A stretch of 64,000 bases of DNA. Origin: a virus (lineage: Duplodnaviria > Caudoviricetes). Shown here piece by piece: positions 11,206-61,689 of the stretch. How positions within the stretch are numbered: position 1 is the stretch's first letter; each line of letters opens with the position of its first letter. A program made the position numbers and the translations under genes. The notes beneath the pieces were generated by a model that had not been told where the DNA came from, did no database searches, and saw nothing but the letters and a program-made list of their open reading frames with translations. The DNA is taken from positions 64,001-128,000 of IMG/VR virus record IMGVR_UViG_3300028735_000004. The stretch is one strand, 5' to 3'.

Positions 11206-13851
11206 TTATGATACAGTTAATGTATTGGTGCCTTGAGAGGACGAATAACAATTGGTTGGATTATATACCGCTCTAATAGTAAATATTCCAACATCATAGT
11301 CCCAAGGCGAAACGGTAATTGAGGCATAACTTGCAACTAATGTAGCTGAACTAATAAATACTTCTGGACCCGCCGGGTCTCCACCTATTGTTAATTGTTG
11401 ATAATAAAAATCAACAGTTCCATCAGGAGATCCTCCAGAAACATAGGCAGTAAATGTTGTTGTTCCGTGAATTGATATAAACATAGGATCAATTGTTAAA
11501 GTCGTTGTAGTTGAAGTTGGTGAATTAACCTGATATTCAGTAATAGTATCATTGCTGGTATTATAATTACTATCTCCTTGATAATAAGCCTTAATGCGCC
11601 AAGTTCCTGCCGGCACTATACTGTTGCTAATATTGCAGGTCGCCCCTCCAACCGACGGAACAAGTGTAGCTGAACCAATCGTAATTTCAGGAGTGCCCAC
11701 ACGAGGTGCGTATTTAAATATAACCGTTCCGGATGGAGTTCCTGAGCCTGGAAAATTTACAGATACATCAGCGGTGTATGTTGTATTAGAGCCAGCACAT
11801 CCGACACCAGGAGATGCAGATAAAGACACAGAAGTGTTTGCTTTATTCACAGTTTGTACAATAGGATCTGATGTTTTTGGACCAAATATACCGTCTCCAA
11901 GGTATGAAGCAGTTATATTAAATGTTCCGGCGCCAAAAAAAGTAATAGATCCATTACCAATACCCGCTAATAAAGAAGAGGTGGCGACCACAGTTCCATT
12001 TTTTTTAAATTGAACATTTCCGGTAGGAGTTCCATAAATACTTGAGACAGTTGCAATATAATTAATAGTTTCTCCAACTACAGATGGATTTGGATCCGCT
12101 ATCGCTTTTTCAATTGTTATAGATGTTCCATATCCAATTACTTGATGAACTAATGTAGAAGAATATGCCGGCAAATAATTATTATCACCGTAATAAATTG
12201 CTGACAAATAATATGTTCCAGCTGATAAAAATACAGGATTATAATTTAATTGACCTGAAGATAAAGTGCCAGAATACAATGCATCATATCCATCTTTAAA
12301 GAAAATCACATCACCTGTCGGGGTAGCAACAGAGCCGACCACATAAGCACTAAATGTTAAAGTATCGCCTAATTCAGATGGATTAGTGCCTAATGTTTGA
12401 TATAATAAAATAGTTGAAACTGATTTATAAATATCGTGATATAATTCTTGAGATAATCCATTATGATTGCTATCTCCAGAATAAATCGCTGTAAATAAAT
12501 GCGTTCCAGCATTAAAATCATAACCAGAAATAGATGCAGTAGCAACTCCATCGATATTGGACAGAATTGCAGAACCAATTAAATAATATCCGTCATAAAA
12601 ATTAATGCTACCAGAAGGAACGCTACCATAATCACCAGAAACTTTACATAATAAATATATATTAGAGCCATAACCAGATGGATTTGATCCAGGAATGCTA
12701 AAATCTAAATATACTCCGGCTTTACTAACCGTGTAATTTAATGTGGCTGTTTTTGTTTCAAAAACCTCAGTGCCTCTATATATCGCTCTTAAATAATGAG
12801 ATCCTGTAGATAATGAAGAAATTGATAATTCAGTATATCCATCAGATAAATATCCACTACCAAGAAAAGTATAATACCCATCATAAAAATCAACAATTCC
12901 ATCAGGAACCGATGTTGATGTTAATGTTGCATTTAATGTTATAAGTTGATTATAATAAGAAGAAGTTGGAGATGCGGTTAATGTCATACTTACTGGAGTA
13001 TAAACCGGATCTGTAATAACTTGACTTAAAATATTAGAAGTATTAGTTAAATGATTTCTGCTGCCTAAATAAACTGCTGTAATATAATGAGTACCTATAT
13101 CAGCAATTTTAGTAGTGAATACAACTGTACCAGAACCGTCTAATGTTCCAGTTGCTAATAATGTAGTATAGCCATCATAAAAACTTACTCTTCCTTGTGG
13201 TATTCCATAAGAAGAAGATACTTGTGCTGAAAAATTAACTAATTGATTATTGCCGGCCGGATTTAGATTGGATGTTAAATTTACTGTTGTTGAGATTGGT
13301 GAAATTAATTGAGATATTGGTAAAGTAATACTTGGACCATAAAAATCATTACCTACATAATACGCTTTAACTTCATATAATCCGCCTTCAAGGAAAACAT
13401 CTCCGGAATTAGCTACACCTAAATTATTTAACTCTACTTCCTTAATTTCTAAATTATTTGAATAAAATTTTACACGACCTTGAGGAATAGATCCGTCTGC
13501 AGATAATACAGTTGCAGTAAAATTAACAAACTCTCCATAATTAATTGAAAAGTTAGAGCTAATTAATGAAATTGAGGTAGAAATTGGAGTTCTACTAACC
13601 ACATTTTCTATAACAATTGAAGATACGCTTGTGTTGAAGCGGCCCTGACCATCATATTCGGCGATAATATTATTATTTCCTGGATTTAAATCAGATACTT
13701 CTAATTCTGCTTCTCCCCTGGAATTTAATTTTACCCTACCTATTTCTACATTACCATTTTTAAAAACAACAAATCCTTTGGGAATAACAGGAGTATCCAA
13801 AGATATTACTTTGGCTTTTACTTTTACCTTATCTCCTTGTTTAATAACCAT
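11206..13851 (-). CDS. Virion adhesin/fibre with about 9 tandem bacterial Ig-like (group 3) domains
   Basis: Repeats of T-x-L-T-x-S-P-N-P...P-x-G-x-V-x-F-x-D-G...G-x-H/Y-x-I-T-A-x-Y-x-G-D-x-N. Confidence 0.85.
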   Translation of the reverse strand: MVIKQGDKVKVKAKVISLDTPVIPKGFVVFKNGNVEIGRVKLNSRGEAELEVSDLNPGNNNIIAEYDGQGRFNTSVSSIVIENVVSRTPISTSISLISSNFSINYGEFVNFTATVLSADGSIPQGRVKFYSNNLEIKEVELNNLGVANSGDVFLEGGLYEVKAYYVGNDFYGPSITLPISQLISPISTTVNLTSNLNPAGNNQLVNFSAQVSSSYGIPQGRVSFYDGYTTLLATGTLDGSGTVVFTTKIADIGTHYITAVYLGSRNHLTNTSNILSQVITDPVYTPVSMTLTASPTSSYYNQLITLNATLTSTSVPDGIVDFYDGYYTFLGSGYLSDGYTELSISSLSTGSHYLRAIYRGTEVFETKTATLNYTVSKAGVYLDFSIPGSNPSGYGSNIYLLCKVSGDYGSVPSGSINFYDGYYLIGSAILSNIDGVATASISGYDFNAGTHLFTAIYSGDSNHNGLSQELYHDIYKSVSTILLYQTLGTNPSELGDTLTFSAYVVGSVATPTGDVIFFKDGYDALYSGTLSSGQLNYNPVFLSAGTYYLSAIYYGDNNYLPAYSSTLVHQVIGYGTSITIEKAIADPNPSVVGETINYIATVSSIYGTPTGNVQFKKNGTVVATSSLLAGIGNGSITFFGAGTFNITASYLGDGIFGPKTSDPIVQTVNKANTSVSLSASPGVGCAGSNTTYTADVSVNFPGSGTPSGTVIFKYAPRVGTPEITIGSATLVPSVGGATCNISNSIVPAGTWRIKAYYQGDSNYNTSNDTITEYQVNSPTSTTTTLTIDPMFISIHGTTTFTAYVSGGSPDGTVDFYYQQLTIGGDPAGPEVFISSATLVASYASITVSPWDYDVGIFTIRAVYNPTNCYSSSQGTNTLTVS

Positions 13852-16800
13852 TATGTTAAGATAATTAGGGTATCATTACCACAGTTGAAAGTTTCTGGAG
13901 TTAATTCAAGTATGTTTTGTGTTTTGCTTGCAGAAACAAATAATGGTTTATTGTTCCAACCTGCTTTTTTAAGATAAACAGTGATATTTAATTTTGTGCT
14001 TAAGGTTTGAAGTGTAAAATCATCAAACAAATTAGCAAAATTTAAATATAATAAACCGGTTTGATGGTCTAAATAAATACCCATTCTACCATCAACTATT
14101 GGACCGCTCATATTATCACAATAATACCCATCCAATAATGGAGAATTAGATTGTAATGAAACCGATATTCTAACCTGATCCTTAAGTAATGCATCCGATT
14201 CTACTACGGAACAATCCGCAAATTTCATAGAATTATATCCAAGTCGAGTTTTACCGTTTCCATCTTGATTGCATATAAAGTCAGCAAATAAGTTTATATA
14301 TTTTTCTTCAACAATCGCTGATGCAGGTAATTCTAAAGTAATTTGACCAACTTCAAAATCTACTTTATAGAAATAACCATCAGATCTTAAAATTTCTCCA
14401 CCTAAGTTCATAACCAAATTGTTAGGTATAAAGAAATCATTTTTGCCAGGATCAAATGCCTCTATAAATGGATAAATATCGCTTGACTTTCCGCTTACAT
14501 TACAGGTATTTATGTTATGACCACTTTGATATGTAAATGCAACTGGAACCATTCTTACATTTGGACTTGTTGTAATATAATAATCATTCCAAGATAATTG
14601 TTTTACTATATTAAATGCAACCGGACTTGTTAAAAGATCTTGGCCATATAAAGAGAAGCCTAAATTATAACCGTCTGCTAAAATATCTGGAACAATATGT
14701 ATTAATGAACTTCTATTATTTATGCTTGAACTATAATCATCATCTCTGTCGGTGAATTGTTCTAATGTTAATTTCAAAACATTAAACTTAGTACCAATTT
14801 TATTGGCAGGAGAGGATGTAGCGGGAAATGGAGGGTTTTTATAAATATAATCAGTTAGTAAGCTTGTATCTACGCTGCTTACGATCATATCTCCATTGAT
14901 ATCAGCCTTATACGCCTGCAATATTACTTCTGGACTATAATATAATTTTTTAATAGTAATATTATTTGGATCAAGTAATGCGGTAATACTAAATGAACCT
15001 ATATTTTTTGGATTAATAGCAGTAGGAATATGAACTTTTAAAGTAGATAAATTAGATAAAGCAGAAAAATTGGTTGATGCACTTGCAAAATTAGCCAAGG
15101 TGCCATCTAAAACATTTACGGTTAAAATACCATCAGTACCGCTTGCTACAACATTTACTCCATCTAATACTTGGAATGTAAGGGGACCATCATCAACGAA
15201 ATAATTAGTTAGAGAAATATAATCTTGTTGTGTTGGTACGGATGTTAAATTTACACCTAATAAATTTTGTGCTATCGCTAAATCATTTTCATCAACAACA
15301 CCATCATCATTTAAATCACCGTATGTTAATGAAATTAATTCACTTCTACAAATTCTATAAAAATTTGTAGGATTAGATATGTTAGGAATAAATTTTGCGT
15401 TATTTAAATTGCCATTTAAGAATTCTGTTACTAAATTTAAAACATCTAAATCATATCGCGGATCTGTAGGATCGTCTATAATTTTAATTAATAATTCGTT
15501 TTTAACTATACAGTATTCTCTTAAATAAGCCGATATAGCGGCCGATAATGCATTATAAGATTTGACATTTTTATCTGAAACAGTGCCTAAAATCAATGGA
15601 TCTGATGTTTGAGTTAATTTTAATAACTCACTATCTTTAATTAAAGATAAGGACGGTTCATATTGTTTAATACTATCTATTGTATTGCCAGTTCTTGCAT
15701 CTTGAACAGGCACGCTTGTATTTTCAACAGCAGAAAGATGAGCGTAATATACATCGTTTCTGACAAAGGATACATTATCTAAACAATAATCAATATTTAC
15801 ACCAGTATTATTATCTAATTTAACTTTCGGTACAGAAACACCCACACCTGCATCATAAGCCTGACCATCTGAAATTTTAACTGCATCAGACCATACTTGA
15901 AACCATAAACTTTCTTCAGAAACATCTACCCAATCATTACCATCAAATAATGTTAATCTGCTTTCTGAAAAAATATTTTCTCCGACAGCAAATTTAATAC
16001 TACACTTATTTGCCGAACCTGCTCTTTTAACGGTTATTACATAATATTTATCTGCAGATATAGCGGTTCCTGCACCAACCGCAGTATTACTGAAAATAAA
16101 ATCAACAGGTTGTGGAACAGTATCTAATACAACTCCACGATCTGCTAAACTATTATAATTAAAACTTAATTGTGCTAAAGGAATATTTGATGGTGGGAAA
16201 TCTATTGCTAATGTCGGTGATATTTCAACCGGACAATCTAATACAGATTGCAATGGATATAAACTAACTATTAAATCACCATTCCATACTAAATCTGCTG
16301 GATTAGATGAATTATCTACGGACATCAATAAGGTAATTTTTTGAATATTACTATTTGATGCTAAAAATTTTTGACCTATTTGAGAAACTACATCATTTTC
16401 TGCCAATTCTCTTAATTGTCTATATCCAGTTTTAATATTTAAGGTATCTAAATTATAACTTGGTAAGGCTTGTTGTAGCATACTTGATAATGAACCGCCT
16501 CCAGAAACAAAGAAATCTCTAAAAAATAAATTTGGTTCTACATCTTGCGCTAACATTAAACTATCTCGAGAAATAGTTAATGGATTAGTTTCTTTAATAA
16601 CAATTCTGCCACCCAAATTAAAAGATAAATTAGCGTCCCCAATGAAATCATTAAAAAATACTTTTAATACTCTAACATAATGGTTTTTAGAAAATTGTTT
16701 TTCATTTGTATGAAACACAAATCTATCATACTGTAATGTATTTTCAAAATTTAAACCTATAATTAATACTTTAACTGTTCTTTTACCAGTAGCCAAAGAT

Positions 16801-17075
16801 CCAGATAATTCAACTTCTAATTGAGATCCTTGATTTTGATCTCTGGGCTGATTTTGAAAATCTATACCCTTGCCATCTAATACGCCAGAAACCAATAAAG
16901 AATCAAATAATTGTTTTTGAGATAATACATCTGGAACTACACCGGATCCAAAATGATTATTAATAATTCCAGTTTGAATTTGATTGTTATAACTTTGTTC
17001 AGTTAATAAATCAGCATCATCAATATTTTGACCATTAAACCATTTATTTTGTGGAGCTGATACCGGTATTCTCAT
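13851..17075 (-). CDS. Baseplate/fibre-anchor structural protein with two dockerin/EF-hand-like motifs
   Basis: N-terminal WFNGQNIDDADLLTEQSY is typical of baseplate-attached fibre proteins. GDLNDDGVVDEND and ADINGDMIVSSVD motifs. Position follows the wedge gene. Confidence 0.6.
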   Translation of the reverse strand: MRIPVSAPQNKWFNGQNIDDADLLTEQSYNNQIQTGIINNHFGSGVVPDVLSQKQLFDSLLVSGVLDGKGIDFQNQPRDQNQGSQLEVELSGSLATGKRTVKVLIIGLNFENTLQYDRFVFHTNEKQFSKNHYVRVLKVFFNDFIGDANLSFNLGGRIVIKETNPLTISRDSLMLAQDVEPNLFFRDFFVSGGGSLSSMLQQALPSYNLDTLNIKTGYRQLRELAENDVVSQIGQKFLASNSNIQKITLLMSVDNSSNPADLVWNGDLIVSLYPLQSVLDCPVEISPTLAIDFPPSNIPLAQLSFNYNSLADRGVVLDTVPQPVDFIFSNTAVGAGTAISADKYYVITVKRAGSANKCSIKFAVGENIFSESRLTLFDGNDWVDVSEESLWFQVWSDAVKISDGQAYDAGVGVSVPKVKLDNNTGVNIDYCLDNVSFVRNDVYYAHLSAVENTSVPVQDARTGNTIDSIKQYEPSLSLIKDSELLKLTQTSDPLILGTVSDKNVKSYNALSAAISAYLREYCIVKNELLIKIIDDPTDPRYDLDVLNLVTEFLNGNLNNAKFIPNISNPTNFYRICRSELISLTYGDLNDDGVVDENDLAIAQNLLGVNLTSVPTQQDYISLTNYFVDDGPLTFQVLDGVNVVASGTDGILTVNVLDGTLANFASASTNFSALSNLSTLKVHIPTAINPKNIGSFSITALLDPNNITIKKLYYSPEVILQAYKADINGDMIVSSVDTSLLTDYIYKNPPFPATSSPANKIGTKFNVLKLTLEQFTDRDDDYSSSINNRSSLIHIVPDILADGYNLGFSLYGQDLLTSPVAFNIVKQLSWNDYYITTSPNVRMVPVAFTYQSGHNINTCNVSGKSSDIYPFIEAFDPGKNDFFIPNNLVMNLGGEILRSDGYFYKVDFEVGQITLELPASAIVEEKYINLFADFICNQDGNGKTRLGYNSMKFADCSVVESDALLKDQVRISVSLQSNSPLLDGYYCDNMSGPIVDGRMGIYLDHQTGLLYLNFANLFDDFTLQTLSTKLNITVYLKKAGWNNKPLFVSASKTQNILELTPETFNCGNDTLIILT

Positions 17076-17106: not shown

Positions 17107-20100
17107 TCATTTGTATATGATAAAACTTCTAGAGTTAGCTGGTTTTAATTTTTTAACTAAAATTTCTAATATTTCTTGTAATTTATCATTTTGACTAATT
17201 AATTTAAATGAATCAAATACTGTGATAGTAAAATCAAATAAACCTATCTCATCGTTGCGCAATTTAGCGAAATCTTCAACTTTTTCAATTACTTTATCAA
17301 AGTCTAAAAGTAAAGTTGTATATAAATCTTCGACAACCGGCAACACTATCTCGGTATTAGAACTGTAATTTACATCTAATGATTCGCCATAAGGCATATA
17401 TAAAGGCCTTGATACATTACTAATTCTTAAATTATCTATTAAGGCAAATGCACCATTTTTACCACTATGATCTGTTCCAATATAAAATTCATTTATAGTA
17501 TCTTTAAAGGTAATTGAAGAAATAATGCTTGATTCTCCAACATAAGATGAGCCCATAACTACACCTTGACCTAATAGTAAGCCGCTTCCAAATAAAACAT
17601 TGCCTCTTTCATATCCATCTACAAATAATCTAATTTCATCTTTACCTAATCCGCCATTAACTTTGTAAGATGCCTTTACTCTATGCCAAGAGTTTCTGGT
17701 CCAGAAAATAGGTGCTCTAATTTGGTAATCTAATGAATCGGCTCTTATATTAAAATTAATATATCCAGATGGATCTTTATATATAGAAATTCGATCTCCA
17801 TTTGTACCAGTTGGTTCATAACTTACTATTACCGGTGTATTTGGGCTTGGTAGTGGTTTTCTTAAATAAATAGTTTGTTTATCACTGGAAATAGTTCCGT
17901 TAATAAAGTAATCATAATCTTTATCACCGTAAAGTAATTTGACACTAACAATTTTTGATGCCCTACCTTTAATTTTAACTTCCACATTATTTACGCTTGT
18001 GGTTTTTTCTGATACTACCGAAGATGCGTCAAAGTAGAAACGATATGCTATATCGTTCCAGGAATCAAACAATGTATTAATCCAAAACTCTATAGTTCCT
18101 TCATTTTTGTTTAAAATTCCAAGATTTTCGAATTTCAAAGGAGCATTAGTAAAACAAATACTTTGATTAAATTTATCATTTACTTTCTCAGAAGCCTGAA
18201 TGTATTGATGGTTTGAAGTAATGTAAAAATCAGCCTTATTAACGAATGGTTTTTCATCAAATGTAGAATAAAAAATCAAATTCGATGTTAATTTAGGAGG
18301 TTTAACCGAATTATAATGTTTGGTAATAGTTTCTTTTGAAGAACTAACTACCTCTCCAATTCTAACATCACTATACATAGCAGAAGATATTCTTACTTCA
18401 TCTAAAATCCCACCTAATTGATTTTTTTCATCATAACTGGATCCAAGATAAAAATAAGGAATGTTAGATTTAAATGGTATTGTTAAATATGTATAATAAT
18501 CAAACTCATACATTCCTTTAGTTAGAATATATGGAATGCCAGCAAACCTATCTTCTTCAAATGTAAAGAAGCCGTTTTGTAATCCACTACTATAAGTATG
18601 TAAATTCAAAACTTCATATACGCCATCGGTAAATGTGGTTAATGGTAATGGATAAGAAGATGACAATTGAGATAAAGTTAAACTCATTCTATCAGAAGAA
18701 ACTCCAGTTATATTATAGAAACCGGCAACTGCAGACGGAGATATTATTCTTAAATAATTACCAATTAAAGTATCTGAAAAATGAGCGTTTTCGTCTCTAA
18801 CTACATATCCATCTGATCCATCATTATAAAGAGTATTACCTACAGAAACTTGATAACTAAATCTAATGACTGGAGAAACTATCTCATATCCATCAGCAAG
18901 ATATGCCGTATTTATATCTTTATATGTAATAGCATTCGCTTCTTTAACCGCTAATAATAAACAGTCTTTGGAAGTATCTATTGGTTTGCAATTAACTTGT
19001 ACTGTATTAACTAATAAAAATAAATTAGAAGTATTAAGAGAGCCAACATCAGTAAAAGTTAAAGTTTCGATAACATTTTCTTGCAATCCAGAAATTGGAT
19101 TTAATCTAATGCCATCTATATTAACGCTAACTGATGTGCTAAAATCTATATTGGTGCCATTAATTTCTACAGTTAAAAATCTTCCGCTGTCTGTATTAGA
19201 TGGCTGATCCGTTTTTAAATTATTAGAATTGAATACACCGAATGATAAGGTGGAATTGCTTGGTCCTATTGCTGTTCTATCTAATAATACTTTATAAATT
19301 TTAACATCATTTAAAGAAACGGGTGGAGGTAATCTTGTCGGTATTACATTAGCATTATTACCCCAAATATAATATTTTTGTTTTAACCTTCTATTATTAA
19401 TACCTAATGTATTAATTAATACTATATCGTTAATTAGTGCTTTATCTCTAATTGTCAAAACCGCGTTATAATAACCATCTGTGCTTTCACTTATTTCGTA
19501 CGCTGGATGCAAGGCTCTAACGCCTGGTATTTCTTCATCTTCATTTTTATAAATATAAAAATTGGTGCCAGAAAAAGATGATGGAAGAGTGTCATTTATA
19601 ATTAACGAATTGGCTGATACACTTAAAATAGTATAGACATCACTTAAACCATCTATTTTAATTAAATATCCTGGATTAATTTTAGAGCTTATAAAATTAG
19701 ATGATGAAGAATAAACAATGCTGGCGCCAATAGTACCTTGCAAATCATTATTAGTTAAGCTTGTGTGTAATAAAGAAACAGCAATATTGGGATAAATATC
19801 AATAGGAGTTTTAACACTGAATGATGTTTTATTTACTGAAAACTTACCATTCTGTATTGTTAATGGCATAACAGATGCTAATGTTAAATTATTTCCATTA
19901 ACAAATGTAATATTATATCCAGTAGTTGAAAAACCCTCTTCTTCTATATATAAAGTATCACCAATATTAATGCCATAAGCACCAAAATTAATTGATGAAT
20001 TAACGATATTAGATCCGAAAGTTGTCGATAAATCAGTAGATGAAACAATATTATTATTAATGAAACCTATTATTTGTTCCGGATTAATAGTTCTATATTT

Positions 20101-23100
20101 TTCGTGCAGATATGGTTTAAGTTTTTCACCATATTTAAAAATATTTGGAACCTCTTGTCCATCAACAAATAAATGAATTTCGTCTCTTCCGGTTTTTGCG
20201 TTGAGTTTCCAAGATGTGGCAACAAAATGTTTTTCTCCGGCTTTCCAGGCAGAGATATCAGAACTAATTAAATAAGATGTTTTATTGCTATCGAAAATTT
20301 TGAAATTTAAATATCCGGTCTCATCTTTAAATAAAGAAATTCTATTTTTATTTTCATTTTCGGCATAATCTAAAATATAATGAGTTGTATCAGCCAAAAA
20401 TGTTATTTCTTGCTGAGGATTAATATCATTGGTTATTTTGTAATTTATTTTGCTAACAGATGTGAATAAACTTCCAGAATATGGTTTCGAAACTGAAGTA
20501 AATTTTGAATCATAAAATTTACCGTTAGTTTCTATTGTAATATCATAATTTTTTACAATATACCCATCATCATATCCGTCTTGAATAGCAAGATACCATC
20601 TGGAAAAATCGCCAGATAAATCTTTATCGTAGTAAATAAATACACCATCTTTATATTTATTAGGAGTCCCATCAACTCTATCGTTTTTATTTAATTTAAT
20701 AACATATTTATTATTTTCGACAACATATGACGGGTGATATTCGGCCGCTCCTATAAAAATTTGATTTTCTGGTAAAGGAACACCATTTTTTAAAATAGAA
20801 ATTGTTAAATCTGCTAAATTATCTAAACCGTTCCATTCAGGTATAATCCAACTCTCAAATGTTCCTTCTTCTATTTTTAAATTTCCTGCTATTGGTAATT
20901 TAATATATTCATCACTATTTTTAATTAAAACTCCACTACCATATTTAGATGGCAAAAGATTTAAATCGCCGGATGTTATAATTTCTTCTTGAGATAATAA
21001 ATTATATCCTAATGACCAATTAGTAAAAGCTGATTCTTTAACTTCGGCCGGAGTATGAGATATAATTGATGCAATATTTTTGATTGCAGTTAATGATGGA
21101 CCACTAATAAATGATTGCATTGCTGCAATTAAACAATCTCTATATCTTTCCCTATCAAACAATGTATCAAAAGTGGAAAGTATTGGGATATCGATTAATA
21201 AACCGAAATTCTTTAATAATGCATCTCTTAAAGCACCAACTTTATAACTTACATAATAATCTTCATTAGGATTAAGAGCAGAACTATTTCTAAAATCTAA
21301 AACATTATCTCCATATTCATAACTAATAACAATTTCATCTGCCAAATAAGTATAATCTATATAAAAATCACCTTTATTATAATCAATTACCAAAGAAGAT
21401 AAATCGTTAATAGTAAATGAATAATTAACTACTACATAATCTCCGTTTTGAGGATTATTAATTCCGGATAAAACTAAAGTCAAATTATTGCCAAGTACAT
21501 AAGATCCAGAATTATCCCATAATTCATATCCATCAGAAGCTTTAATTACGCTTATATTTAAAGATATATTTGGTGATAAATAATATAATGGATTATTTAA
21601 TGTAATATAGTATTGATATCCATCATATTGAACTATTTGATATTCTTCAAAATCAAGAGAAGATACGCTTACTATTTTACCAGAAGCTGACGCCGCATTA
21701 GCAAAATTTATTGGCTGTATATTATTATATAAATCATTTAATTCATATAATCCTCTAATATACTTAACATTATTGCTAACGCCTGGTACAAATTCAGAAT
21801 TATCAAAAGATCCTATTTTATTATTTAATAATACATAAGGATACAATTGATCGTTATTTAAAAATCTTTCATTTAAATATTCCAAATTTTCAACATATGC
21901 AGATCCGTCAAAGATATCAGAATAAGCAAAAGTTTTTTCTTTTTGAGAAATTGAGCTAAATTGATAATATAAATCTTCTACACTTAATATGTGAGGGTAT
22001 TGTGTATTGATATAAGATCGTTTATAAGAAACAGAGCCAATATTAAAATCTTGATTTATATCTACTGCGCAATAAATTACACCATTTTTATAATCAACTT
22101 GATAATAACCAACTTGATTTAATCTTGTCAAATTATCAGTTTCAGATATAAAATTATCAAAATACAACTCATTAACAAAAATATTTAAATCTGAAAAATT
22201 AACAGTAGAGTTTTCTGAAAAACCTAAACCGTCTTCACTTGAACCAACTATATTATTATTATTTAATAAAATTTTAAATATTTTTATATTAGGATCAACA
22301 GTAGTAATTATAGTGTTAATAAATAAAGTTTCGTTAGAGACATAATCAAACGAAGCCCTTTCTCTAACTAATGATTGAATGTTTGGTGGTATATTATAAG
22401 AAAAATATATTTTATCATTATTAAATCTTACAAATTTATATAATTCTCCAGAAGTTTCATTATATATTCTAAATACATTTGTAATAGGACTATTTTGTGC
22501 TTTAAGTGCATTTAAGGCAATTAAATTATTTCCTATTCTTTCGTTTAAAGCCTCTTTATGTATATTTGCAATATAATCAATATCTTTAGCCAACACATTT
22601 TCAAAACTAAAACTAATGTCAGCTGATATTTCTTTTAAATTTCCGTTAGGTAATGAAACTAACTCTAACAAGCTTTCGTCATAAACATAATCGATATCTT
22701 CTTTAAAGGAATATTTGTAATTATATACTATTACTGGTGGAGTAGCTCCAGTACCAGACATTTCTTGACTTTCACCATATACATATACAGTTCCGGTTTC
22801 ATAATCTATCGCATATTCCCCAACACGAGATGGCAAATAATCAACTCTATAAGGTATCTCATATAAAAATGCCGGATGTTTTACATTAGAGTTTGGAGGA
22901 GCACTTAAATTATAAAAAACCACATCTCCAACACTACCAATCTTACCATTTGCTTTAGTGATTGGAGCGTGTTTTAAATTGAAAATATTCTTTAACGGAG
23001 GGAGAGTTTCTCTGCCGGAAGATAAAACGGTGCTAACCTCAATCGTTGTAGGATCTATAGAAATAGATGTATCTTTATATTGATATTTAACCGAAATATT

Positions 23101-47814: not shown

Positions 47815-47822
47815 ATATATCA
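47815..47822 (-). promoter_or_regulatory. TGATATAT putative promoter element
   Basis: Exact motif 9 nt upstream of the HNH ATG, which has no obvious SD (possibly leaderless). Confidence 0.3.
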
Positions 47823-48611: not shown

Positions 48612-49706
48612 TTAAATCCATCTGTATTTGATGCGAATTGGTGATATTCTCATAAAAGCATAATGAGCTGCAATTATAGAAGAAACATTAAAATATACAG
48701 TAAAATATAATCTTATATTACTGGAATATGAATTAATATATGTATTAATAGAAGGTGTAACGCTTATCGGATAATTTACTGTCGTAAGAGCATTAGTTCC
48801 GGTTTTATTATGATCTAAAGCCGCATCTCCTCCAGATTCCATTAAAACACTATCACTTGTAACAGTAGCGGGGCTCATTACAGAAGACGAATCTCTTTTA
48901 ATTATTCTAATAAATGCATCTCCAGAATATGTTATAGATGATGCTACAACAGAGCCGGTTGCCTGACAATTAGTGGCAATATTAACCATAGCGTTTAATA
49001 TTTGAACATTTTTAGGCAAAACTGTATCTAAATCTATCATTTTACCAAAATGTACCATACCATCATTACCAATGGTATTAGTTGATAATTCAAGAAATGC
49101 AAGATAATTTGTATTATTGGGAGTTGCTAAAGATACACCTGCTCTTTTAGAAGTATTAGCATTAAATGTCAAAGGATCTGTATAATAATCCATATTATGA
49201 ACATCTAACTGATATCTGTTGTCTTTCATAGGATAAGCGGGATCAGGAAGATGTTGAACAGTATAATACGGATTGTGTTTTAATCCGTCGTGATTTAACA
49301 AACTATAAAATGCATACGCAGTTTGATTGACATTTCTTTCGTAAATAGTACCTTCTGTATTATTTTTTACTAAATTTTCATCGGTTCCATCTACTGTGGC
49401 TTGATCAAAAGCATTTTCTGTTATTACGGAATTTTTTGTGCCGGCGGGTTTAAAATATATATATGCTAATATATTTGAATTACCTCTTGTAAAAGTATTT
49501 TTTGTAATATGAGATCTTGTGTCATTTACAAAAACCATAGATTTAGTAACATCATCTTTTATACCAGCAAAAAAATTATTTACTACAACTACATCTGCAT
49601 CAATATGTAAAATACGATCGTAAGTATAGGTAGTAGTTGTAGTACCGTTTGTGGTAATACCATAGTCTGTATGATTACCATCAATTATAAAATTACCATA
49701 TACCAT
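48612..49706 (-). CDS. Virion structural protein with beta-helix-like N-terminus
   Basis: VVNNFF, ITKNTF and ITENAF repeats; coupled by TAATG to the 1488-aa gene. Confidence 0.5.
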   Translation of the reverse strand: MVYGNFIIDGNHTDYGITTNGTTTTTYTYDRILHIDADVVVVNNFFAGIKDDVTKSMVFVNDTRSHITKNTFTRGNSNILAYIYFKPAGTKNSVITENAFDQATVDGTDENLVKNNTEGTIYERNVNQTAYAFYSLLNHDGLKHNPYYTVQHLPDPAYPMKDNRYQLDVHNMDYYTDPLTFNANTSKRAGVSLATPNNTNYLAFLELSTNTIGNDGMVHFGKMIDLDTVLPKNVQILNAMVNIATNCQATGSVVASSITYSGDAFIRIIKRDSSSVMSPATVTSDSVLMESGGDAALDHNKTGTNALTTVNYPISVTPSINTYINSYSSNIRLYFTVYFNVSSIIAAHYAFMRISPIRIKYRWI

Positions 49707-52700: not shown

Positions 52701-54172
52701 CTAAACGCATTATTTGTTGAATCTACTAAACTATCTAAAGTATATTTTCCTGGAGTAGAACCTTTATTACCGGTAATATCTATAGGCGGTAAATTAATAG
52801 ATTTTTCTAATGGATTACCGGTTGGATAAAATGTTAAATATAAATTATAATGAGTTGAATCTATTTTTTCAGGATTAAAACCTATACCTAAAGCAGAAGC
52901 CGATCTTGGATGAGCTACAATTAAACTATCTTGTTCGCTAAATTGATTATGTGCTCTGGCCATTGCCAAAACACCGTATTTATTTTCAGTAAAAAATGAT
53001 TTATAAATATTAACTGTTGCGGTAGATGAAGAAAATAAATTTTTACCATTAATTCTAACGGCATAAGTTCTATTAGGACCATTAATAATAGCCTTAGTTG
53101 AATCTATAGTGAATGCAACAGAGCTTGTAGCATTACCATAATCTACTACTATTATATCTCCCGGTTTTACTAAAGCGAAATCAGCATCAAAAGTATTATT
53201 ATTTAATACCGTTGATGATGGATTTAATAAAATAACATCATCACCATTACTAAAATTATCCACTGGGACATTTGATCCGCTAAATAATAAATAAGTAGTC
53301 GCAGGAGATGTTAAAATAAACTGTCCTCCATTATCACTTAATAATGAAGTTGCCCTTGCGCTTCTTGATACACCGTTAGAAAATAAAGTTTGGGTTTTTG
53401 TTCCCAATAATAATAAGCTGGAATTATCAACAAATTCTGCAAAACTTTGTACATCTTCTACTGTTGATGGAATTGTTGCAAAGTTAGCAGAATTGACATA
53501 AACTCCAGCCGCCATATGTGCATAATTTTCTGGAGGTATAGTTCCGCCTAATGATGCCGATGTAATTGGATTTCCATCTGCTTTTTGGTGAATAGTTAAT
53601 TCATCACTGATATCTTGTAATAATGTTTGACCATTTGTAATATCTCTTGATACAACTGCGGACCCAGGAGATGAAACATTTGGAATTGGCGCGGGTTTAA
53701 CATAAGAAGCGGAAGTATCAATATCTAAATGAGAGAATTTATGACGATAAGCAGTACCCGCAATATGAGGTTCTACTTTAATTCCGGTAATACTTAGAAA
53801 GCCATTAAGTACATCAACTGAATTTTTTAAATTTTGATAAAGATTATAAAGATATTGGGTACTATAATTTAATTGTAATTTAGATTCTTGTATTCCAGCA
53901 ATAGCGGATACTTGAGAATCAGTAATTGGTAATACAACTAAACCCAAACCAGTTAATGCAGATGCTTTTATAGTACCATCTTGGTTTAATGATTGATCTA
54001 ATCTGTCAGCAATAGAGGCTTTACTACCATTTGCCAAAATTCCTATATTAGATTGAATAGCAAAAACAGCAGATCTTAAAGCATTTAATAATTCTTCGCC
54101 TATTTCAGTAAGATTATTATTTACTGGCGGCAATACATTATCATCATCTAATTGATTTGGGAAGTTTGACAT
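49706..54172 (-). CDS. Long tail fibre/spike-like structural protein with C-terminal pectin-lyase-like beta-helix
   Basis: MSNFPNQLD...LNALRSAVFAIQ head-domain pattern; C-terminal ITIEDCTF, ISENIC and IIDGNYC repeats. Confidence 0.6.
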   Translation of the reverse strand: MSNFPNQLDDDNVLPPVNNNLTEIGEELLNALRSAVFAIQSNIGILANGSKASIADRLDQSLNQDGTIKASALTGLGLVVLPITDSQVSAIAGIQESKLQLNYSTQYLYNLYQNLKNSVDVLNGFLSITGIKVEPHIAGTAYRHKFSHLDIDTSASYVKPAPIPNVSSPGSAVVSRDITNGQTLLQDISDELTIHQKADGNPITSASLGGTIPPENYAHMAAGVYVNSANFATIPSTVEDVQSFAEFVDNSSLLLLGTKTQTLFSNGVSRSARATSLLSDNGGQFILTSPATTYLLFSGSNVPVDNFSNGDDVILLNPSSTVLNNNTFDADFALVKPGDIIVVDYGNATSSVAFTIDSTKAIINGPNRTYAVRINGKNLFSSSTATVNIYKSFFTENKYGVLAMARAHNQFSEQDSLIVAHPRSASALGIGFNPEKIDSTHYNLYLTFYPTGNPLEKSINLPPIDITGNKGSTPGKYTLDSLVDSTNNAFRQTGYNYRFIAYSYKGEFGIMLADHYNNASFSIISGTLDSSGNYYSGSLSSYPFNVIDGYNNLDALGFGPNGSGVASPPYSTSYTNPIVAQVPTVILAPQKRKFFYVNGTEKDLLNKEIFTSEDTFGDGYWPATINNKTILGNRVEITYMVPYDLSTSGLKKGKTIVVYPNASPALSNFVDYGRFLISNVVFNNCPGPNPETYITVYDAIHGTGTSPYQSANVGTGVNLYFCDDSVSFNSENVGNSVSVIPFKRHFEILVNTDGKVFSHERARFSISGSNVLVDAANSFTLYATTEMQHLNIYEISPKLRGYKSLVYRKIHLFITDFDGTTGVFNGYLCKFDGVSYTNFGPTTTGKKGEKVRFYDESNIDYIDIIFSFDDTISSFVNKGIDIQLYPSLMLDEEKFFIGSCQVNDSNKTIKYIRDGRTFGNISEKHLSSSALDYISASDKLIHENGVVRGFEIIGGTPQNVLSLTGGVVLVNGKLVYMNETTNIIPILQETLSPTFTTNVNTITWFVCVNDKSEIELVASTDYDLSLSGIYGSLDHNRLFYVKNPNAISPTPYNVRGTYLQNLYVKWRDLVPLYTISATVGIVNGKYAVTTSTITDLRRYVSNGYIGMDHPFVLSPDGSFRSVEALNNWMVNLNGLRSAQNVLNLIGAKVLVKGTFPITSTLTFNYNNKVEFVGDNGTFDISVGTGFNIGNNIEFKNITFNYIYDATSDPLFASSSLINIGKSCINMNIGSSGAKNITIEDCTFKTPYANHFAFIGASLTSNSSFGQNIFIKRNQFISTFVGGGDDLSAAVAFVGPSVSPPVNDYNAPKLINCAISENICNRNQMIAITSSVDGVSGNVLNAISPINVYISDNICGSINYLVRRSQPFNTVNSLVILDKEDRLIIDGNYCKYIYCGDNKGKYDNTSGSSKVGLLLASGLFTSSVEIINNTVSWIQVSAKLPNFFREPMGVCIIRNNKLFASDSSILLNYVNQSSNALNYALVAQRVEGS

Positions 54173-55535: not shown

Positions 55536-57173
55536 TTAAATAAACCACCAACTATCAACACCATTACTAACTATAGTCCAAGATCCATAATCAGTATTTA
55601 AAATATAATTGGCTGCAAGTCCCTCAATATTTCCGGTACCACCATTTCGTGATAAAGTAATATTATTTGTGCTTGCTAATCCATATATATCTTTGATTAT
55701 AATTTTCCTACCAGCAGTTGCGGAAGAATGAGCTGGTAAATTAATTGTTTTAGCACTGGAAGTATCTACAAATAACAACACATCAGGATAAATATCACTA
55801 TCGACAGTATATGGTGTTGTAGTAATAGTAAGAGGGTTGTATCTTACTGCTCCATAAAATCCAACGCCATATTGATCTACTAAAAATCTGGGTCTGTTAG
55901 AATTTGCAGTTATAGAAAAAACATTATCATTTCTAAAATTATTTCCAAATAATAATGATGTTAATTTAGAAGAAACATTTGTAATAGAAGGGTTAAATCC
56001 CAAAAATAAAAATGTATTATTTACTGATGTGTCTCCTCTATCAACTGTAAAATTATTGTTAGTAATTAAAATTCTACTATAAGATTGAAGCGGTACAGAT
56101 CCGGCAATAGCACTTTCTATATATACAAATAGGGCAACTGTAGTATCATAGCCTAAAATGAAATTATTAGAAGCATTTATATTTGCGGCCGATAATCTTA
56201 ATACGCAATTATTTTCGGGATTAACAAAATCTGAATTTAAATATCCATAAGCTCTCACATAATTGTTTTCAAAATTTAAATAATCTAATACTCCGGTAGA
56301 AGTTGTAGTTCTTACTGGTACAGCGAACCCGTCAATGAAGCAATTTTTAACATTAATAATTGTTCCAGTAGTAGATGGTATAGTTGAATCAGTTGCAATT
56401 GCGTAAGCAGAAACATTTGTTAAAACACTTCCGGAATAAGTTGTTTTACCTATAAATTTAACATATTCACAGGAGAAATGACATCCTTCTTCTACGGAAA
56501 CTAACGCAGTTGGAGTTGCAGTTGCTGTATTTTTAGGAGTTAAATATGCGGTATCTCCCAAAAATCTTGGTTGAATAAAATTATCCGCTATAGTTAAATC
56601 TACAAATTTAGTTTCTTTAGAAAACATAAATCTACCATTAATAGAATCAATATTATCTTCTAATCTGGTAGCGTTTGCCTTTATCTTGAACAATGGTTTA
56701 GGTGTAGAAATAGCGTTAATTATTTTTGTACCAAATCCCTCGCCAACTATAGTTATGCCAGCCGGAACATTAACTGTATCAATAAATTTATAAGTTCCAG
56801 ATTTAATAACTATCACTCCTCCATTTTTAATACGATCGTGTAATGGATTAGAGGTATTATTTAATAAATCATCTAAGTAAAAATTGAACGCTGGAACGGA
56901 TCCATCATAAGGATTATTTGGATCTATCAAATAATTTTTATAAGTATCGTATCCATCACCTACTGATAAAAATGTGCCAGTGAAATTAGATACAAAACCA
57001 GATACTGCATAAAGAAGATCGTATAAATTATTATAATCTGTTGCACGGAAACTTATTGGAGGTAATACATCTATACCATCTGCATTATGACGAAAATCGT
57101 ATCCATCAATATGATTTTGAAAATCGAACCTGTCTGTGGATAATCTTCCCGATCCTCTTTTGAAATTAACCAT
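55536..57173 (-). CDS. Tailspike with pectate-lyase-3-like beta-helix and fibre-type C-terminal domain
   Basis: GGVIVIKSGTYKF...VPAGITIVGEG; C-terminal TINLPA...GRKIIIKD...NITL. Confidence 0.7.
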   Translation of the reverse strand: MVNFKRGSGRLSTDRFDFQNHIDGYDFRHNADGIDVLPPISFRATDYNNLYDLLYAVSGFVSNFTGTFLSVGDGYDTYKNYLIDPNNPYDGSVPAFNFYLDDLLNNTSNPLHDRIKNGGVIVIKSGTYKFIDTVNVPAGITIVGEGFGTKIINAISTPKPLFKIKANATRLEDNIDSINGRFMFSKETKFVDLTIADNFIQPRFLGDTAYLTPKNTATATPTALVSVEEGCHFSCEYVKFIGKTTYSGSVLTNVSAYAIATDSTIPSTTGTIINVKNCFIDGFAVPVRTTTSTGVLDYLNFENNYVRAYGYLNSDFVNPENNCVLRLSAANINASNNFILGYDTTVALFVYIESAIAGSVPLQSYSRILITNNNFTVDRGDTSVNNTFLFLGFNPSITNVSSKLTSLLFGNNFRNDNVFSITANSNRPRFLVDQYGVGFYGAVRYNPLTITTTPYTVDSDIYPDVLLFVDTSSAKTINLPAHSSATAGRKIIIKDIYGLASTNNITLSRNGGTGNIEGLAANYILNTDYGSWTIVSNGVDSWWFI

Positions 57174-57271: not shown

Positions 57272-58705
57272 ATGCAATCCGGATATAATTATTTACCTGT
57301 TGATAATAAATCAAGGTTTATTGTCAAAATATTACAAATAAGGTAATAATTGTATTCGGTATGCCAATTGCGCCTAATAATTCTTATAATTTAATGGCTA
57401 TTCCAGAAGTATCAGAAGCAATCATTAAACATTCATTATTAAAAGGAGAATTAAAACAAGCATTAAGTAGTGCTAAAATACAAATAACATTAACTGATAT
57501 AGATTTAACTACATTTAATATAGATGCTCTTACTGATTTTACAAATTATGGTTTAAGTAATAGTATATATGACGGCACAATATCTGTATTTTCTTTAAAT
57601 AATTTACCACCACCAGTTGATGGATACATTACATTAAGTAATAAAATTTATATATTTTATGGAACTGTAGATATTGGTTTAAATACATATTATTAATTAA
57701 TGATGGAAGCATTCTTATAGGAAGAAGTTCTACTTATGATAAACTTATAGGTAATAGCAATAAACCGTTAATTTTAGTAAATACCCACGAAATTTTTACT
57801 CTTAATAATTTGCAGCTAAATAATCCTTCCGGAATTGGCTTATATATAAATGGGAATTCTACCGGTATATCAACAATAAGTAAAATAAGCGTAATAAATT
57901 GTAAAACATGTATATTTGCAACTGATTATCAATTTCATATTGGACTTCATTAAATATAAATAATTGTTTAACTGGAATTAAATATGATGGATATTGCGAT
58001 TCTTTTTATTTGAATGAAACATTATTTAATAATTTTCAATATAATGGAACTATGCTTGATATTAATTCAAATACATTAAATATTAATAATATTTTTATTA
58101 ATAGTTTATTTATAACAACTAACAGTACTCATAAAGCAATATTATGGTCTGGCGCTAATTTATCTCGTGGATTTTTGGAATCAAATACTTTTAGTGGTCC
58201 AGGATCTTATATTAATTTTCAAAAATCAAATATTTATTGGCACATCGATTCTAACAATGGAATAGTAGACGGGGCAATAGTTGCTGACTTAAGATATACG
58301 GCCATTACTCCAGTTGGATGGACTAACCTTGGACAAAATAATTGGGTAGATATTCCTGGTACCTTTGCATTATCTCCTGTTACAGAAAGATTCATTCAAT
58401 ATGTACCCAATACCGGAGAGCTTCAGTATATAGGTTTAGAAGATATTGAAATAATGATTACCGGTTTAGCCGCAGTAGAGGCAAGTAGCGGAAATCCAAT
58501 ATTTGGAATATGTGTAGCAATTAACGATGCGGAACAGGCTAACTCAGAAATAATAGCTTAGTTAGCCAATCAATCTCGAATTTTATCTATATCTTATATA
58601 ATTCAAATCAAGAAAAATGATAGAATTAAATTAAGATTAAGAAATAGAACGAGTGCTTCAAATGCATCGGTTCATTCCGCTATGTTAATGACACATAGAT
58701 TATAA
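57272..58705 (+). pseudogene. Decayed fibre-like gene with C1q/BclA-like C-terminus, opposite strand
   Basis: A continuous reading from ATG 57272 to TAA 58705 needs three +1-base repairs (near 57310, 57690, 57933) and read-through of TAG at 58559-58561. It then ends ...IQIKKNDRIKLRLRNRTSASN...THRL and abuts the GH18 stop exactly. Confidence 0.7.
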
Positions 58706-60087: not shown

Positions 60088-61689
60088 TTATATAATCAAA
60101 GCGTGTGTATGACCTAATTCTGGCTCTACCCTTAAAATACCAGATATAGGATCTCGACTAACCACATGCGAATGTCCTTGATCTTGACTTGTTATTTGGG
60201 CAAAAGTAATAGGATTTTTTTCATTTACAACTATAGTATGTGTGTGAGGAGGAATGCCAGGAATTGCTGAGCCTGAACCAGTCGTAATGGTATTTGGAAA
60301 CATTGCTGTATTTCTAAATACTTTAATTTGATAAGCAGGATCTGTTTTACGAATTCTTTGTAAAGTAAGTTTTTGCGAACCAGAATAACTGTTTAAAAGT
60401 TTATTTCTATTGACCGAAATAACTTCATATCTAAATTCATCGTTATCAATTTCATCAAATCTAACAATAATATCTCTACTTTTAATAGCCGGGATAACGA
60501 GCGTCCAAGATCGTGCATTAAATTCACTTTCCATACCATTTTCGGTTGTTTTAACTTGATCTTCAGCCGGCTCAAATCTCATCATTATACGACTGTCAGA
60601 TCTTCTTGGATTAAAATATTGCTGATATCCTACAACCATACCTGTTCCATAACATTTAATACATCTATTTTCTGGATATTCTCGTCCAGGAATGTAGCAA
60701 TCACAAGTTATACCGGTCCAAACTCTTTTAATCAATACTACGGGCTCACCAGTTAAATCTAATAATTGCTCTTGGCGTTGAGTATTAATGTCTTGTAAAT
60801 TCATTCCTCTCAAAATTCTACCGACTCCATCATAACCATCGGCACAATAATATTCTCCTCCAATATAACTACCTACGCATTCTCCGTTTAATAAAGCAAC
60901 CGGATCTGTTCTGTGCCATCCACTATAATCGTAGGAGGGAAAATCTGCATTAGAGGTATCACTGGCTGACAAATCGGTATTTAATAAATCTTTTGTTTTT
61001 TGATGATATCCATCCGCAATAGTAAATGAATAATTTCCAGAATCAAATCTATTTTGTGATTCATATACTACTGTGTTTTGATCTTCATCGAAAACTGGCC
61101 AAAAAACAACTTTAGGATCCCAATAAGTATAACCATCATAACCGTCAATGTTATGGATAGCTACAGTTGTATCAGAATAACCTCTTTGAGCAGAGCTTAT
61201 TAATACTAAATTATTTCCAGATACATAAGAATAATTGATTAATTCGCCACCAATTTTAACTGTTCCCCCAGATATCGGAAATAAATCTGCATCAATTAAA
61301 GGTACAATTAAATCATTTTCTAAAATATTAGCCGCCAATAAACTTTCTGGATAAAATCTTAAACCATTAAAAGTTTGTGGTAAATTTTGTAAATCAAAAA
61401 AAGTAGAATTATATTCAACAGCTCTAACTGCAAAATGATATAAATATCCTGGGGTTAAATCTAATATGGTAGCAGTTGTTGCTGTACCTATAGAAATAAA
61501 AGAAGGTGTTTTATTAAAATAGTCAGTTTCAAAAACAAAAGGTTCTGTATCTACATAAATGTGATACGCTATGGAGTTGCTGCGATTTGATGGATAAGCA
61601 CTATACCACTCTAATTTTATAGAATATCCATCTCCTAAAGACTGAACTCTTTTTAATCCTGCATTTACCGGGTTTAAATAATAAACCAT
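60088..61689 (-). CDS. Head-tail connector (neck) protein with N-terminal Fn3 domain and His-rich C-terminus
   Basis: Fn3 pattern LEW...YHIY...LTPGYLYHFAVRAV. TGEPVVLIKR...CDC...CIKCYGTG zinc-motif neck domain. C-terminal HTH/GHSH/GHTH repeats. Confidence 0.6.
   Translation of the reverse strand: MVYYLNPVNAGLKRVQSLGDGYSIKLEWYSAYPSNRSNSIAYHIYVDTEPFVFETDYFNKTPSFISIGTATTATILDLTPGYLYHFAVRAVEYNSTFFDLQNLPQTFNGLRFYPESLLAANILENDLIVPLIDADLFPISGGTVKIGGELINYSYVSGNNLVLISSAQRGYSDTTVAIHNIDGYDGYTYWDPKVVFWPVFDEDQNTVVYESQNRFDSGNYSFTIADGYHQKTKDLLNTDLSASDTSNADFPSYDYSGWHRTDPVALLNGECVGSYIGGEYYCADGYDGVGRILRGMNLQDINTQRQEQLLDLTGEPVVLIKRVWTGITCDCYIPGREYPENRCIKCYGTGMVVGYQQYFNPRRSDSRIMMRFEPAEDQVKTTENGMESEFNARSWTLVIPAIKSRDIIVRFDEIDNDEFRYEVISVNRNKLLNSYSGSQKLTLQRIRKTDPAYQIKVFRNTAMFPNTITTGSGSAIPGIPPHTHTIVVNEKNPITFAQITSQDQGHSHVVSRDPISGILRVEPELGHTHALII

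What the first reader, a model, noticed from the sequence alone, without database searches (positions are those of the whole stretch)
11206..61689. Recurrent DGY tripeptide confined to outer virion proteins: candidate virion-modification or docking sequon
Seen (hand count, about 33 DGY): Ig-array 5, 1074-aa protein 3, 2318-aa wedge 8 (incl. DGYDDGY), baseplate J 1, 690-aa protein 2, sheath 2, terminator 1, 1488-aa fibre 2, tailspike 2, decayed fibre 2, neck 5 (incl. DGYDGY). There are none in the tube, tape measure, chaperones, hub, spike or any non-structural enzyme, although those contain many other DG-x. A rough expectation (D about 7%, G 6%, Y 5% over about 15,000 aa) is only about 3. Codons vary (GAT/GAC, GGN), so selection acts on the protein. 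In the Ig domains, Tyr occupies the variable position of the F-x-D-G-x turn in several repeats. Established: Tyr O-glycosylation occurs on some Firmicute S-layers, and phage-encoded glycosyltransferases glycosylate some mycobacteriophage virions. Inference: DGY is a surface-turn sequon modified by the adjacent GT/methyltransferase cassette, or a short motif bound by a decoration protein. This would be a virion-wide tagging system I do not recognise from the literature.
Basis: partly seen in the sequence, partly recalled or inferred. Interest (0 to 1): 0.8.

Follow-up and report, generated by a model that had tools for sequence, protein, structure and literature searches.

The report
DGY tag on huge-phage tail proteins
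The outward-facing tail, baseplate, fibre and neck proteins of this uncultured huge phage and its whole clade carry the tripeptide Asp-Gly-Tyr about eight times more often than chance, while inner tail proteins carry none; this suggests an undescribed mark that something reads, perhaps the phage's own sugar-adding enzymes, though no modification has been shown.

Summary
The window has 32 in-frame DGY in 47 ORFs, or 33 counting a decayed fibre frame. Composition predicts 4.0 and a first-order Markov model 8.0. DGY is the most over-represented of all tripeptides (DG-aware P about 2e-12).

The excess is exact: NGY, EGY, SGY, DGF and DGW are all at about 1x. Codons vary, so selection acts on the protein.

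It is specific to this clade. About 100 related huge-phage loci show 681 DGY against 83 expected. A random sample of viral contigs shows 0.8x, and T4 shows no real excess.

In relatives, DGY arose in many separate alignment columns of outer proteins (74 of 316 DG states). It never arose in inner tail proteins (0 of 210, 6.4 expected).

One syntenic sister contig has no DGY at all and replaces the otherwise conserved sites. Predicted local structures differ from site to site. A fold-dictated turn is therefore unlikely.

A GT4/GT2/GT2/RmlB-like cassette lies directly after the baseplate genes in four fully fetched relatives. The GT4 is present in all five near-complete relatives searched. A distant lineage has a similar cassette but almost no DGY.

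The glycosylation reading stays unproven. Exposure could not be computed and no modification is shown. This scan had already noted the same motif on other DNA of this clade.

The parts
11206..13851 (-). 881-aa array of nine Big_3_5 Ig-like domains, with 5 DGY (aa 226, 324, 337, 420, 520), four of them in the F-x-D-G turn. Among the four relatives fetched in full, a homologue was found only in G004.
13851..17075 (-). 1074-aa baseplate or fibre-associated protein, with 3 DGY (801, 899, 982). Orthologues carry 3-8.
17107..24063 (-). 2318-aa wedge-like protein with a C-terminal Laminin_G_3 domain, with 8 DGY. Positions 1162 and 2149 are conserved in 4 of 4 orthologues.
24050..28129 (-). 1359-aa Baseplate_J protein, with 1 DGY (888, conserved in 4 of 4 orthologues).
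30213..32285 (-). 690-aa baseplate protein of unknown family, with 2 DGY (412, 615).
32320..43952 (-). Block of presumed inner tail proteins: 679-aa, 1601-aa, 285-aa tube-initiator-like, 648-aa Tyr-poor, 95-aa, 211-aa and the 208-aa tube. It has no DGY here, and 1 DGY in about 190,000 aa of their relatives.
   Evidence: the roles are inferred from synteny
44188..46986 (-). 932-aa tail sheath, with DGY at 149 and 423. The family has 19 separate DGY columns, 18 of them in the inserted domains (145-610) and none in the C-terminal core.
47820..48611 (-). 263-aa protein, terminator by position, with DGY at 122. This is DGY in 37 of 41 relatives.
49706..54172 (-). 1488-aa fibre, with DGY at 548 and 618. 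The family has 44 separate DGY columns and a mean of 4.7 per protein.
55536..57173 (-). 545-aa tailspike-like protein, with DGY at 23 and 73.
57310..58561 (+). Decayed fibre-like gene split over three frames, with 2 DGY (57619-57627 and 57986-57994).
60088..61689 (-). 533-aa neck (stopper fold) protein with an N-terminal FN3 domain, with 5 DGY (20, 182, 185, 226, 284). DGY226 is invariant in 41 homologues.
4709..11191 (-). Sugar cassette on the same strand, starting 14 bp after the Ig-array gene. It holds GT4 (10070-11191), a SAM methyltransferase (9402-10073, no homologue in the four relatives fetched in full), GT2 (8704-9420), a 332-aa unknown (6527-7525), GT2 (5698-6657) and an RmlB-like dTDP-glucose 4,6-dehydratase (4709-5674). 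It has no DGY. It is the candidate reader of the motif.

Best explanation
DGY is a clade-specific, positively selected tag on the outward-facing parts of the virion: neck, sheath insert domains, terminator, baseplate wedge, fibres and Ig array. It is not dictated by the folds. It is kept because some factor peculiar to this phage clade recognises Asp-Gly-Tyr. The most likely reader is a phage enzyme that modifies the tyrosine. The leading candidate is O-glycosylation by the GT4/GT2/GT2/dehydratase cassette, which lies next to the baseplate genes on the same strand. Shown here: the enrichment, its exactness, its restriction to the clade and to outer proteins, repeated independent gains, and the conserved cassette.
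For: Enrichment survives all backgrounds tried. It is exact for all three residues, with NGY, EGY, SGY, DGF, DGW and DGH at about 1x in five genomes. It is absent from a random viral sample (29 against 37 expected; proteins of 500 aa or more, 11 against 12.7) and from T4 once the Seg paralogues are set aside. A universal turn preference is therefore excluded. It is present across relatives with GC from 30 to 48%. DGY arose in 19 sheath columns and 44 fibre columns, and 118 of 119 sheath homologues keep at least one. Inner tail families show 0 Y among 210 distinct DG states against 6.4 expected, P about 0.002. This hints at a cost of DGY where reading it would do harm. The syntenic sister contig L283 has 0 DGY in 6,271 aa and replaces the conserved sites (DGY to DVH, NAI and N-Y), so the folds do not need DGY. 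Local structure differs between sites: loop, strand end, mid-strand, low confidence. The full GT cassette is syntenic directly after the baseplate genes in G001-G004. Its GT4 is present in 5 of 5 near-complete relatives. Its position is that of a late gene.
Against: No modification has been observed. Side-chain exposure could not be computed. A distant lineage (L281/L305) has the same order of tail protein, GT4/GT2/GT4 fusion, NTP-transferase, TubZ and sheath. Yet its large outer proteins have 0 DGY in 41 DG. No cassette-less DGY-rich genome and no complete DGY-free genome could be examined. The GT families here (GT2, GT4) usually build glycans and are not known tyrosine transferases. The depletion in inner proteins rests on related sequences and on Tyr-poor proteins. 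Two Kelch-repeat proteins of relative G002, of unknown location, also carry DGY.
Confidence: 0.35

Rival explanations
1. DGY is itself a small binding patch. Asp hydrogen-bonds and Tyr stacks on a sugar, as in many lectin sites. This would give the whole outer virion weak multivalent adhesion to host capsule, biofilm matrix or mucus. No enzyme reads it.
For: It is restricted to outward-facing domains. Numbers are kept while positions turn over. Both the carboxylate and the phenol are required. Fibres and Ig or LamG domains are the richest.
Against: It does not explain why Asn cannot replace Asp. It does not explain single, nearly invariant sites in the neck and terminator proteins. It does not explain the hint of avoidance in inner proteins. 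No known lectin site is a bare D-G-Y.
Confidence: 0.2
2. DGY is a lineage-specific structural habit. It is a stable turn or strand-edge element, with an Asx cap and Tyr packing on a cross-strand hydrophobic residue. It spread by descent and domain shuffling among the beta-rich outer proteins, and nothing reads it.
For: Hydrophobic residues are favoured at -4 and -2. Many sites are conserved at about 50% identity. Four of the five Ig-array sites lie in the known F-x-D-G turn. Kelch blades of a relative carry it at the blade hairpin.
Against: Physical preferences are universal, yet controls show none. D-to-N and Y-to-F equivalents are not enriched. Predicted contexts differ between sites. There are dozens of independent gains. 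A sister lineage with the same folds has no DGY.
Confidence: 0.2
3. DGY is a docking site for a clade-specific protein, such as a decoration or cement protein or an assembly chaperone, that binds outer virion proteins.
For: The same distribution arguments apply as for a reader. The all-or-none pattern between lineages also fits.
Against: No candidate partner was identified. Three residues are few for a specific protein-protein contact. Copy numbers vary widely between orthologues.
Confidence: 0.12
4. The excess is an artefact of composition, repeats or paralogous domains.
For: Five sites lie in repeated Ig domains. In T4, four of eleven DGY come from Seg paralogues.
Against: Removing the Ig repeats still leaves 27 sites with unrelated flanks. 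Shuffles and the Markov background are exceeded by far. There are 74 separate columns in four families.
Confidence: 0.03

Closest known systems
Short bacterial glycosylation sequons: Campylobacter PglB D/E-X-N-X-S/T, and the Bacteroidetes general O-glycosylation motif D-(S/T)-(A/I/L/V/M/T) (from my own knowledge; the Bacteroidetes system appears in PMC8698959, listed)
   Same: Both are three-to-five-residue motifs that begin with an acidic residue. Both are scattered over many unrelated surface proteins, are gained and lost in evolution, and are read by one transferase system.
   Different: The known systems act on Asn or Ser/Thr in the periplasm through lipid-linked glycans. Here the candidate acceptor is Tyr, the proteins assemble in the cytoplasm, and no glycan has been shown.
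Virion glycosylation of mycobacteriophages by phage-encoded glycosyltransferases (Freeman et al. 2023, as cited in PMC12619734; the paper itself is not held)
   Same: Phage-encoded glycosyltransferases are thought or shown to decorate the phage's own structural proteins.
   Different: There, glycans sit at the C-termini of the capsid and tail-tube subunits. Here the tube has no DGY, the motif is internal and scattered over a dozen proteins, and no modification is shown.
Tyrosine O-glycosylation of S-layer proteins of Firmicutes such as Paenibacillus alvei and Thermoanaerobacter (PMC2943079, listed; details from my own knowledge)
   Same: Tyr is the glycan acceptor on a self-assembling surface protein.
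   Different: That system uses a membrane oligosaccharyl transferase outside the cell, with few sites per protein, and no DGY context is described.
Asp-Gly beta-turns and tyrosine corners of beta-sandwich proteins (my own knowledge)
   Same: D-G is a common turn, and Tyr near a strand end can cap a sheet. Four of the five Ig-array sites fit this.
   Different: These preferences are universal and tolerate Asn or Phe. The excess here is confined to one clade, is exact for D, G and Y, and occurs in varied local structures.

Membership tests
Sequon-directed protein glycosylation | A short linear motif shared by many otherwise unrelated target proteins | tested here: met
   There are 32 DGY in 11 proteins with unrelated flanks. 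The excess holds across the clade.
Sequon-directed protein glycosylation | A dedicated transferase encoded by the same genome | tested here: inconclusive
   GT4, two GT2 and an RmlB-like enzyme lie beside the baseplate genes and are conserved. Their acceptor is unknown, and a distant lineage has similar genes with almost no DGY.
Sequon-directed protein glycosylation | A glycan covalently bound to the motif's acceptor residue | not testable with these tools
   This needs mass spectrometry of virions or of co-expressed proteins.
Sequon-directed protein glycosylation | The acceptor side chain is accessible on the folded or folding protein | not testable with these tools
   The models come without coordinates. 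The only evidence is at domain level: sheath DGY columns lie in the inserted domains.
Mycobacteriophage-type virion glycosylation | Phage-encoded glycosyltransferases | tested here: met
Mycobacteriophage-type virion glycosylation | Targets are the C-terminal tails of the capsid and tail-tube subunits | tested here: not met
   The tube family has 0 DGY in 96 members. The motif is internal. The capsid is not in the window.
Generic Asp-Gly beta-turn motif | The preference is seen in unrelated proteins | tested here: not met
   A random viral sample gives 0.8x, and proteins of 500 aa or more give 11 against 12.7. The T4 long fibres have 0. The L305 outer proteins have 0 of 41 DG.
Generic Asp-Gly beta-turn motif | One recurring local conformation | tested here: not met
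   The neck sites lie in loops and low-confidence stretches. Sheath DGY149 lies at a strand end and DGY423 inside a long strand. This rests on model-based DSSP only.
Generic Asp-Gly beta-turn motif | Chemically similar residues (Asn for Asp, Phe for Tyr) serve equally | tested here: not met
   NGY and DGF are at expectation in five genomes.

The most novel reading that the evidence does not exclude
Asp-Gly-Tyr is the sequon of a previously unknown cytoplasmic tyrosine-modifying system, glycosylation or another adduct. A large clade of huge phages would use it to coat the entire outer surface of their tails, with selection keeping the motif off the inner tail proteins.
Probability: 0.3. Interest if true: 0.9.

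Novelty: new variant of a known kind. Interest (0 to 1): 0.72.

Why it matters
If something reads DGY, this would be the first sequence tag known to mark the outer surface of a phage virion as a whole. It could also be a new tyrosine-directed protein modification. That would bear on how huge phages shield or stick their tails, on phage recognition by hosts and immune systems, and on tools for site-specific protein labelling. The pattern is strong, simple and directly testable by co-expression and mass spectrometry, although the phages are uncultured. I found no description of it in the searchable literature.

Tried and rejected
- **DNA-level motif:** rejected. There are seven codon combinations and only 2 out-of-frame copies.
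- **GC or composition bias:** rejected. The excess holds in relatives with 30-48% GC, and the DGY-free sister contig has 29% GC.
- **Longer consensus around DGY:** none found beyond weak hydrophobic preferences at -4 and -2.
- **Tandem DGYxDGY pairs as a signal:** not robustly above chance.
- **Exposure from models:** not possible, because no coordinates are delivered.
- **Function of the 332-aa cassette protein:** no Pfam, NCBIfam or Atlas lead.
- **Longer contigs of the DGY-free sister lineage:** none exist in IMG/VR or in the 5.8-billion-protein collection.
- **IMG/VR relatives of the distant GT-bearing lineage:** none found, and its record cannot be searched whole.
- **Capsid protein search in relative G002 with PF07068:** no match, and the controls did not match either, so it is uninformative.
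- **GenBank phages:** no near relative. The only match is a 35% hit to the sheath C-terminus of an Eggerthella phage.
Full report
**What the window is**

All long genes lie on the minus strand of a 29% GC sequence. Family and fold searches identify the following:
- a tail sheath at 44188-46986, with VIA-align Z 29-33 to the phage 812 and pyocin sheaths;
- a Baseplate_J protein, a 2318-aa wedge-like protein with a LamG domain, and an array of nine Big_3_5 Ig domains;
- a neck protein with a stopper fold and an FN3 domain;
- a GH18 protein;
- at the low-coordinate end, a TubZ-like tubulin, a GIY-YIG endonuclease and a sugar cassette.

The cassette holds an RmlB-like dehydratase, GT2, a 332-aa unknown, GT2, a SAM methyltransferase and GT4. 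No GenBank phage is close. Relatives are IMG/VR contigs of up to 480 kb. The window's own contig is 244 kb. This is therefore the late structural block of an uncultured huge myovirus.

**The observation**

The 33rd lies in a decayed plus-strand fibre gene.

| Background | Expected DGY | Source |
|---|---|---|
| Composition | 4.0 | |
| First-order Markov | 8.0 | |
| Per-protein shuffles (2000) | mean 3.7, maximum 12 | |
| DG dipeptides kept fixed | 6.7 (P about 2e-12) | |

DGY is the top tripeptide by both z-scores. Codons vary and out-of-frame copies are rare. The flanks share no longer motif, apart from the Ig repeats and a weak hydrophobic preference at -4 and -2.

**Specificity**

Only Tyr is favoured after DG, at 5x. 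Phe, Ile, Val, Thr and Ser are at 1-1.4x. NGY, EGY, SGY, TGY, DGF, DGW and DGH are at expectation in the window and in four related genomes.

**Controls**
- A quasi-random sample of 80 IMG/VR contig pieces (210,000 aa) has 29 DGY against 37 expected. Its proteins of 500 aa or more have 11 against 12.7.
- T4 between 70 and 169 kb has 12 against 5.1. Four of these are one conserved motif in the Seg paralogues, and the long fibres have none.
- The excess is therefore not a general property of phage or beta-rich proteins.

**The clade**

In 102 sheath-centred loci of relatives (GC 30-48%), DGY occurs 681 times against 83 expected. In each of the four relatives fetched in full (209-480 kb and an 80-kb fragment), DGY is again the most over-represented tripeptide and clusters in the late blocks.

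| Family | Result in relatives |
|---|---|
| Sheath | observed/expected 13.5 |
| Terminator | 16 |
| 1488-aa fibre | 13.5 |
| Neck | 22 |
| Seven low- or zero-DGY tail families: 1601-aa, 285-aa, 648-aa, 95-aa, 211-aa, 208-aa tube and 111-aa (54291-54626, outside the inner block) | 1 DGY in about 195,000 aa, despite about 800 DG |

Orthologues are not independent, so I also counted distinct (DG column, next residue) states:
- outer families: 74 Tyr states of 316, against 13.9 expected;
- inner families: 0 of 210, against 6.4 expected (P about 0.002).

DGY thus arose many times, in 19 sheath columns and 44 fibre columns. It never arose in the inner proteins.

Some sites are almost invariant:
- sheath 423, 38 of 41;
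- terminator 122, 37 of 41;
- fibre 618, 36 of 41;
- neck 226, 41 of 41.

Other sites turn over while the number per protein is kept. Of 119 sheath homologues, 118 have at least one DGY.

**Where the sites sit**

In the sheath family, 18 of 19 DGY columns lie between residues 145 and 610. The invariant DG at 56, 69 and 760 is never followed by Tyr, and the C-terminal core has no DGY column. About 320 residues of the model align to minimal sheaths such as pyocin R2. From published sheath structures (my own knowledge), the extra domains face outward.

The two models give varied local structure:
- neck DGY20 lies in an FN3 loop;
- neck DGY182 and DGY185 lie in loops;
- neck DGY226 and DGY284 lie in low-confidence stretches;
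- sheath DGY149 lies at a strand end;
- sheath DGY423 lies inside a long strand.

Coordinates are not delivered, so side-chain exposure was not computed.

**A natural control**

Contig IMGVR_UViG_3300033069_001735 (L282/L283, 21.5 kb, 29% GC) is syntenic with the window. Identities to the window are sheath 42%, terminator 54%, tube 50% and fibre 35%. It has no DGY in 6,271 aa. The otherwise conserved sites read DVH, NAI and N-Y. These folds therefore do not need DGY. The lineage is a singleton in every collection searched, so its sugar genes are unknown.

**The cassette**

GT4, GT2, the 332-aa protein, GT2, the dehydratase and TubZ follow the baseplate genes in the same order in G001-G004, at 42-64% identity. 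The GT4 is found in 17 of 19 related records and in 5 of 5 that are at least 90% complete. The methyltransferase has no homologue in the four relatives fetched in full. Position and strand suggest late co-expression with the virion genes; this is an inference.

Against a simple link, a distant lineage (L281/L305) has this order: tail protein, a GT4/GT2/GT4 fusion (27% identical to the window's GT4), NTP-transferase, TubZ, sheath. Its four large outer proteins have 0 DGY in 41 DG, and only a 443-aa protein has three.

**Reading**

Several findings together argue against a fold-dictated turn and for a clade-specific reader:
- the preference is exact for all three residues;
- it is limited to one clade and to outward-facing proteins;
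- it was gained repeatedly;
- it is absent from a sister lineage with the same folds;
- it has no single local structure.

I rank the readings as follows:

| Reading | Confidence |
|---|---|
| Tyrosine-modification sequon, with the late GT cassette as leading candidate | 0.35 |
| Intrinsic sugar-binding or adhesive patch | 0.2 |
| Lineage-specific structural habit | 0.2 |
| Docking site for a protein | 0.12 |
| Artefact | 0.03 |

Nothing here shows a modification.

**Prior record**

I found no paper on a DGY or Asp-Gly-Tyr motif in phages. Earlier AI notes of this scan describe the same motif in at least 16 genomes of this clade, including one upstream in this same genome. I treated them as leads and re-tested the main claims.

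Noticed in passing
window 2413-3774 (-): A TubZ/PhuZ-like tubulin (Tubulin plus TubZ-like_C) lies next to the sugar cassette. It is 62-63% identical in four relatives, and it is also linked to GT genes and the sheath in a distant lineage (L305).
   Followed up: partly
window 47069-47806 (-): An endonuclease VII-like gene sits between the sheath and the terminator. It is present in only about a third of related loci, so it is probably a mobile homing endonuclease. A GIY-YIG endonuclease lies at 1221-2120.
   Followed up: no
window 57310-58561 (+): A fibre-like gene on the opposite strand is broken into three overlapping frames. It still carries two DGY.
   Followed up: partly
window 58706-60025 (-): A GH18 chitinase-like protein (E 2e-46) with a hydrophobic N-terminus sits among the tail genes. 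It has no homologue in the relatives fetched and no DGY.
   Followed up: no
window 54636-55526 (-): A 296-aa protein with 33% glycine, collagen-like, matches a 'tail fiber assembly' PHROG. It has no homologue in the relatives fetched.
   Followed up: no
window 60088-61689 (-), aa 329-529: The neck protein has four invariant Cys (329, 331, 343, 346) and three invariant H-x-H pairs (482/484, 506/508, 527/529). These look like metal sites of the kind seen in fibre tips.
   Followed up: no
L283 (IMGVR_UViG_3300033069_001735) 1-19517: This is the only close syntenic relative without any DGY. It also has fewer DG than expected (16 against 23). It is a singleton lineage in all collections searched.
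   Followed up: yes
G010 (contig of L279) 165175-166295: The GT4 homologue of this 92%-complete, DGY-rich relative matches in two pieces, with a TGA in the second. This could be a frameshift, an assembly error or a broken gene.
   Followed up: no
L040:18306-19550 and L039:14787-15689 (relative G002): Two Kelch-repeat proteins outside the tail block carry 6 and 2 DGY, several of them just before the Kelch G-G doublet. It is unknown whether they are virion proteins.
   Followed up: partly
window, DGY codons: Asp in DGY is encoded by GAC in 8 of 32 cases, against 10% GAC overall. This is unexplained.
   Followed up: no
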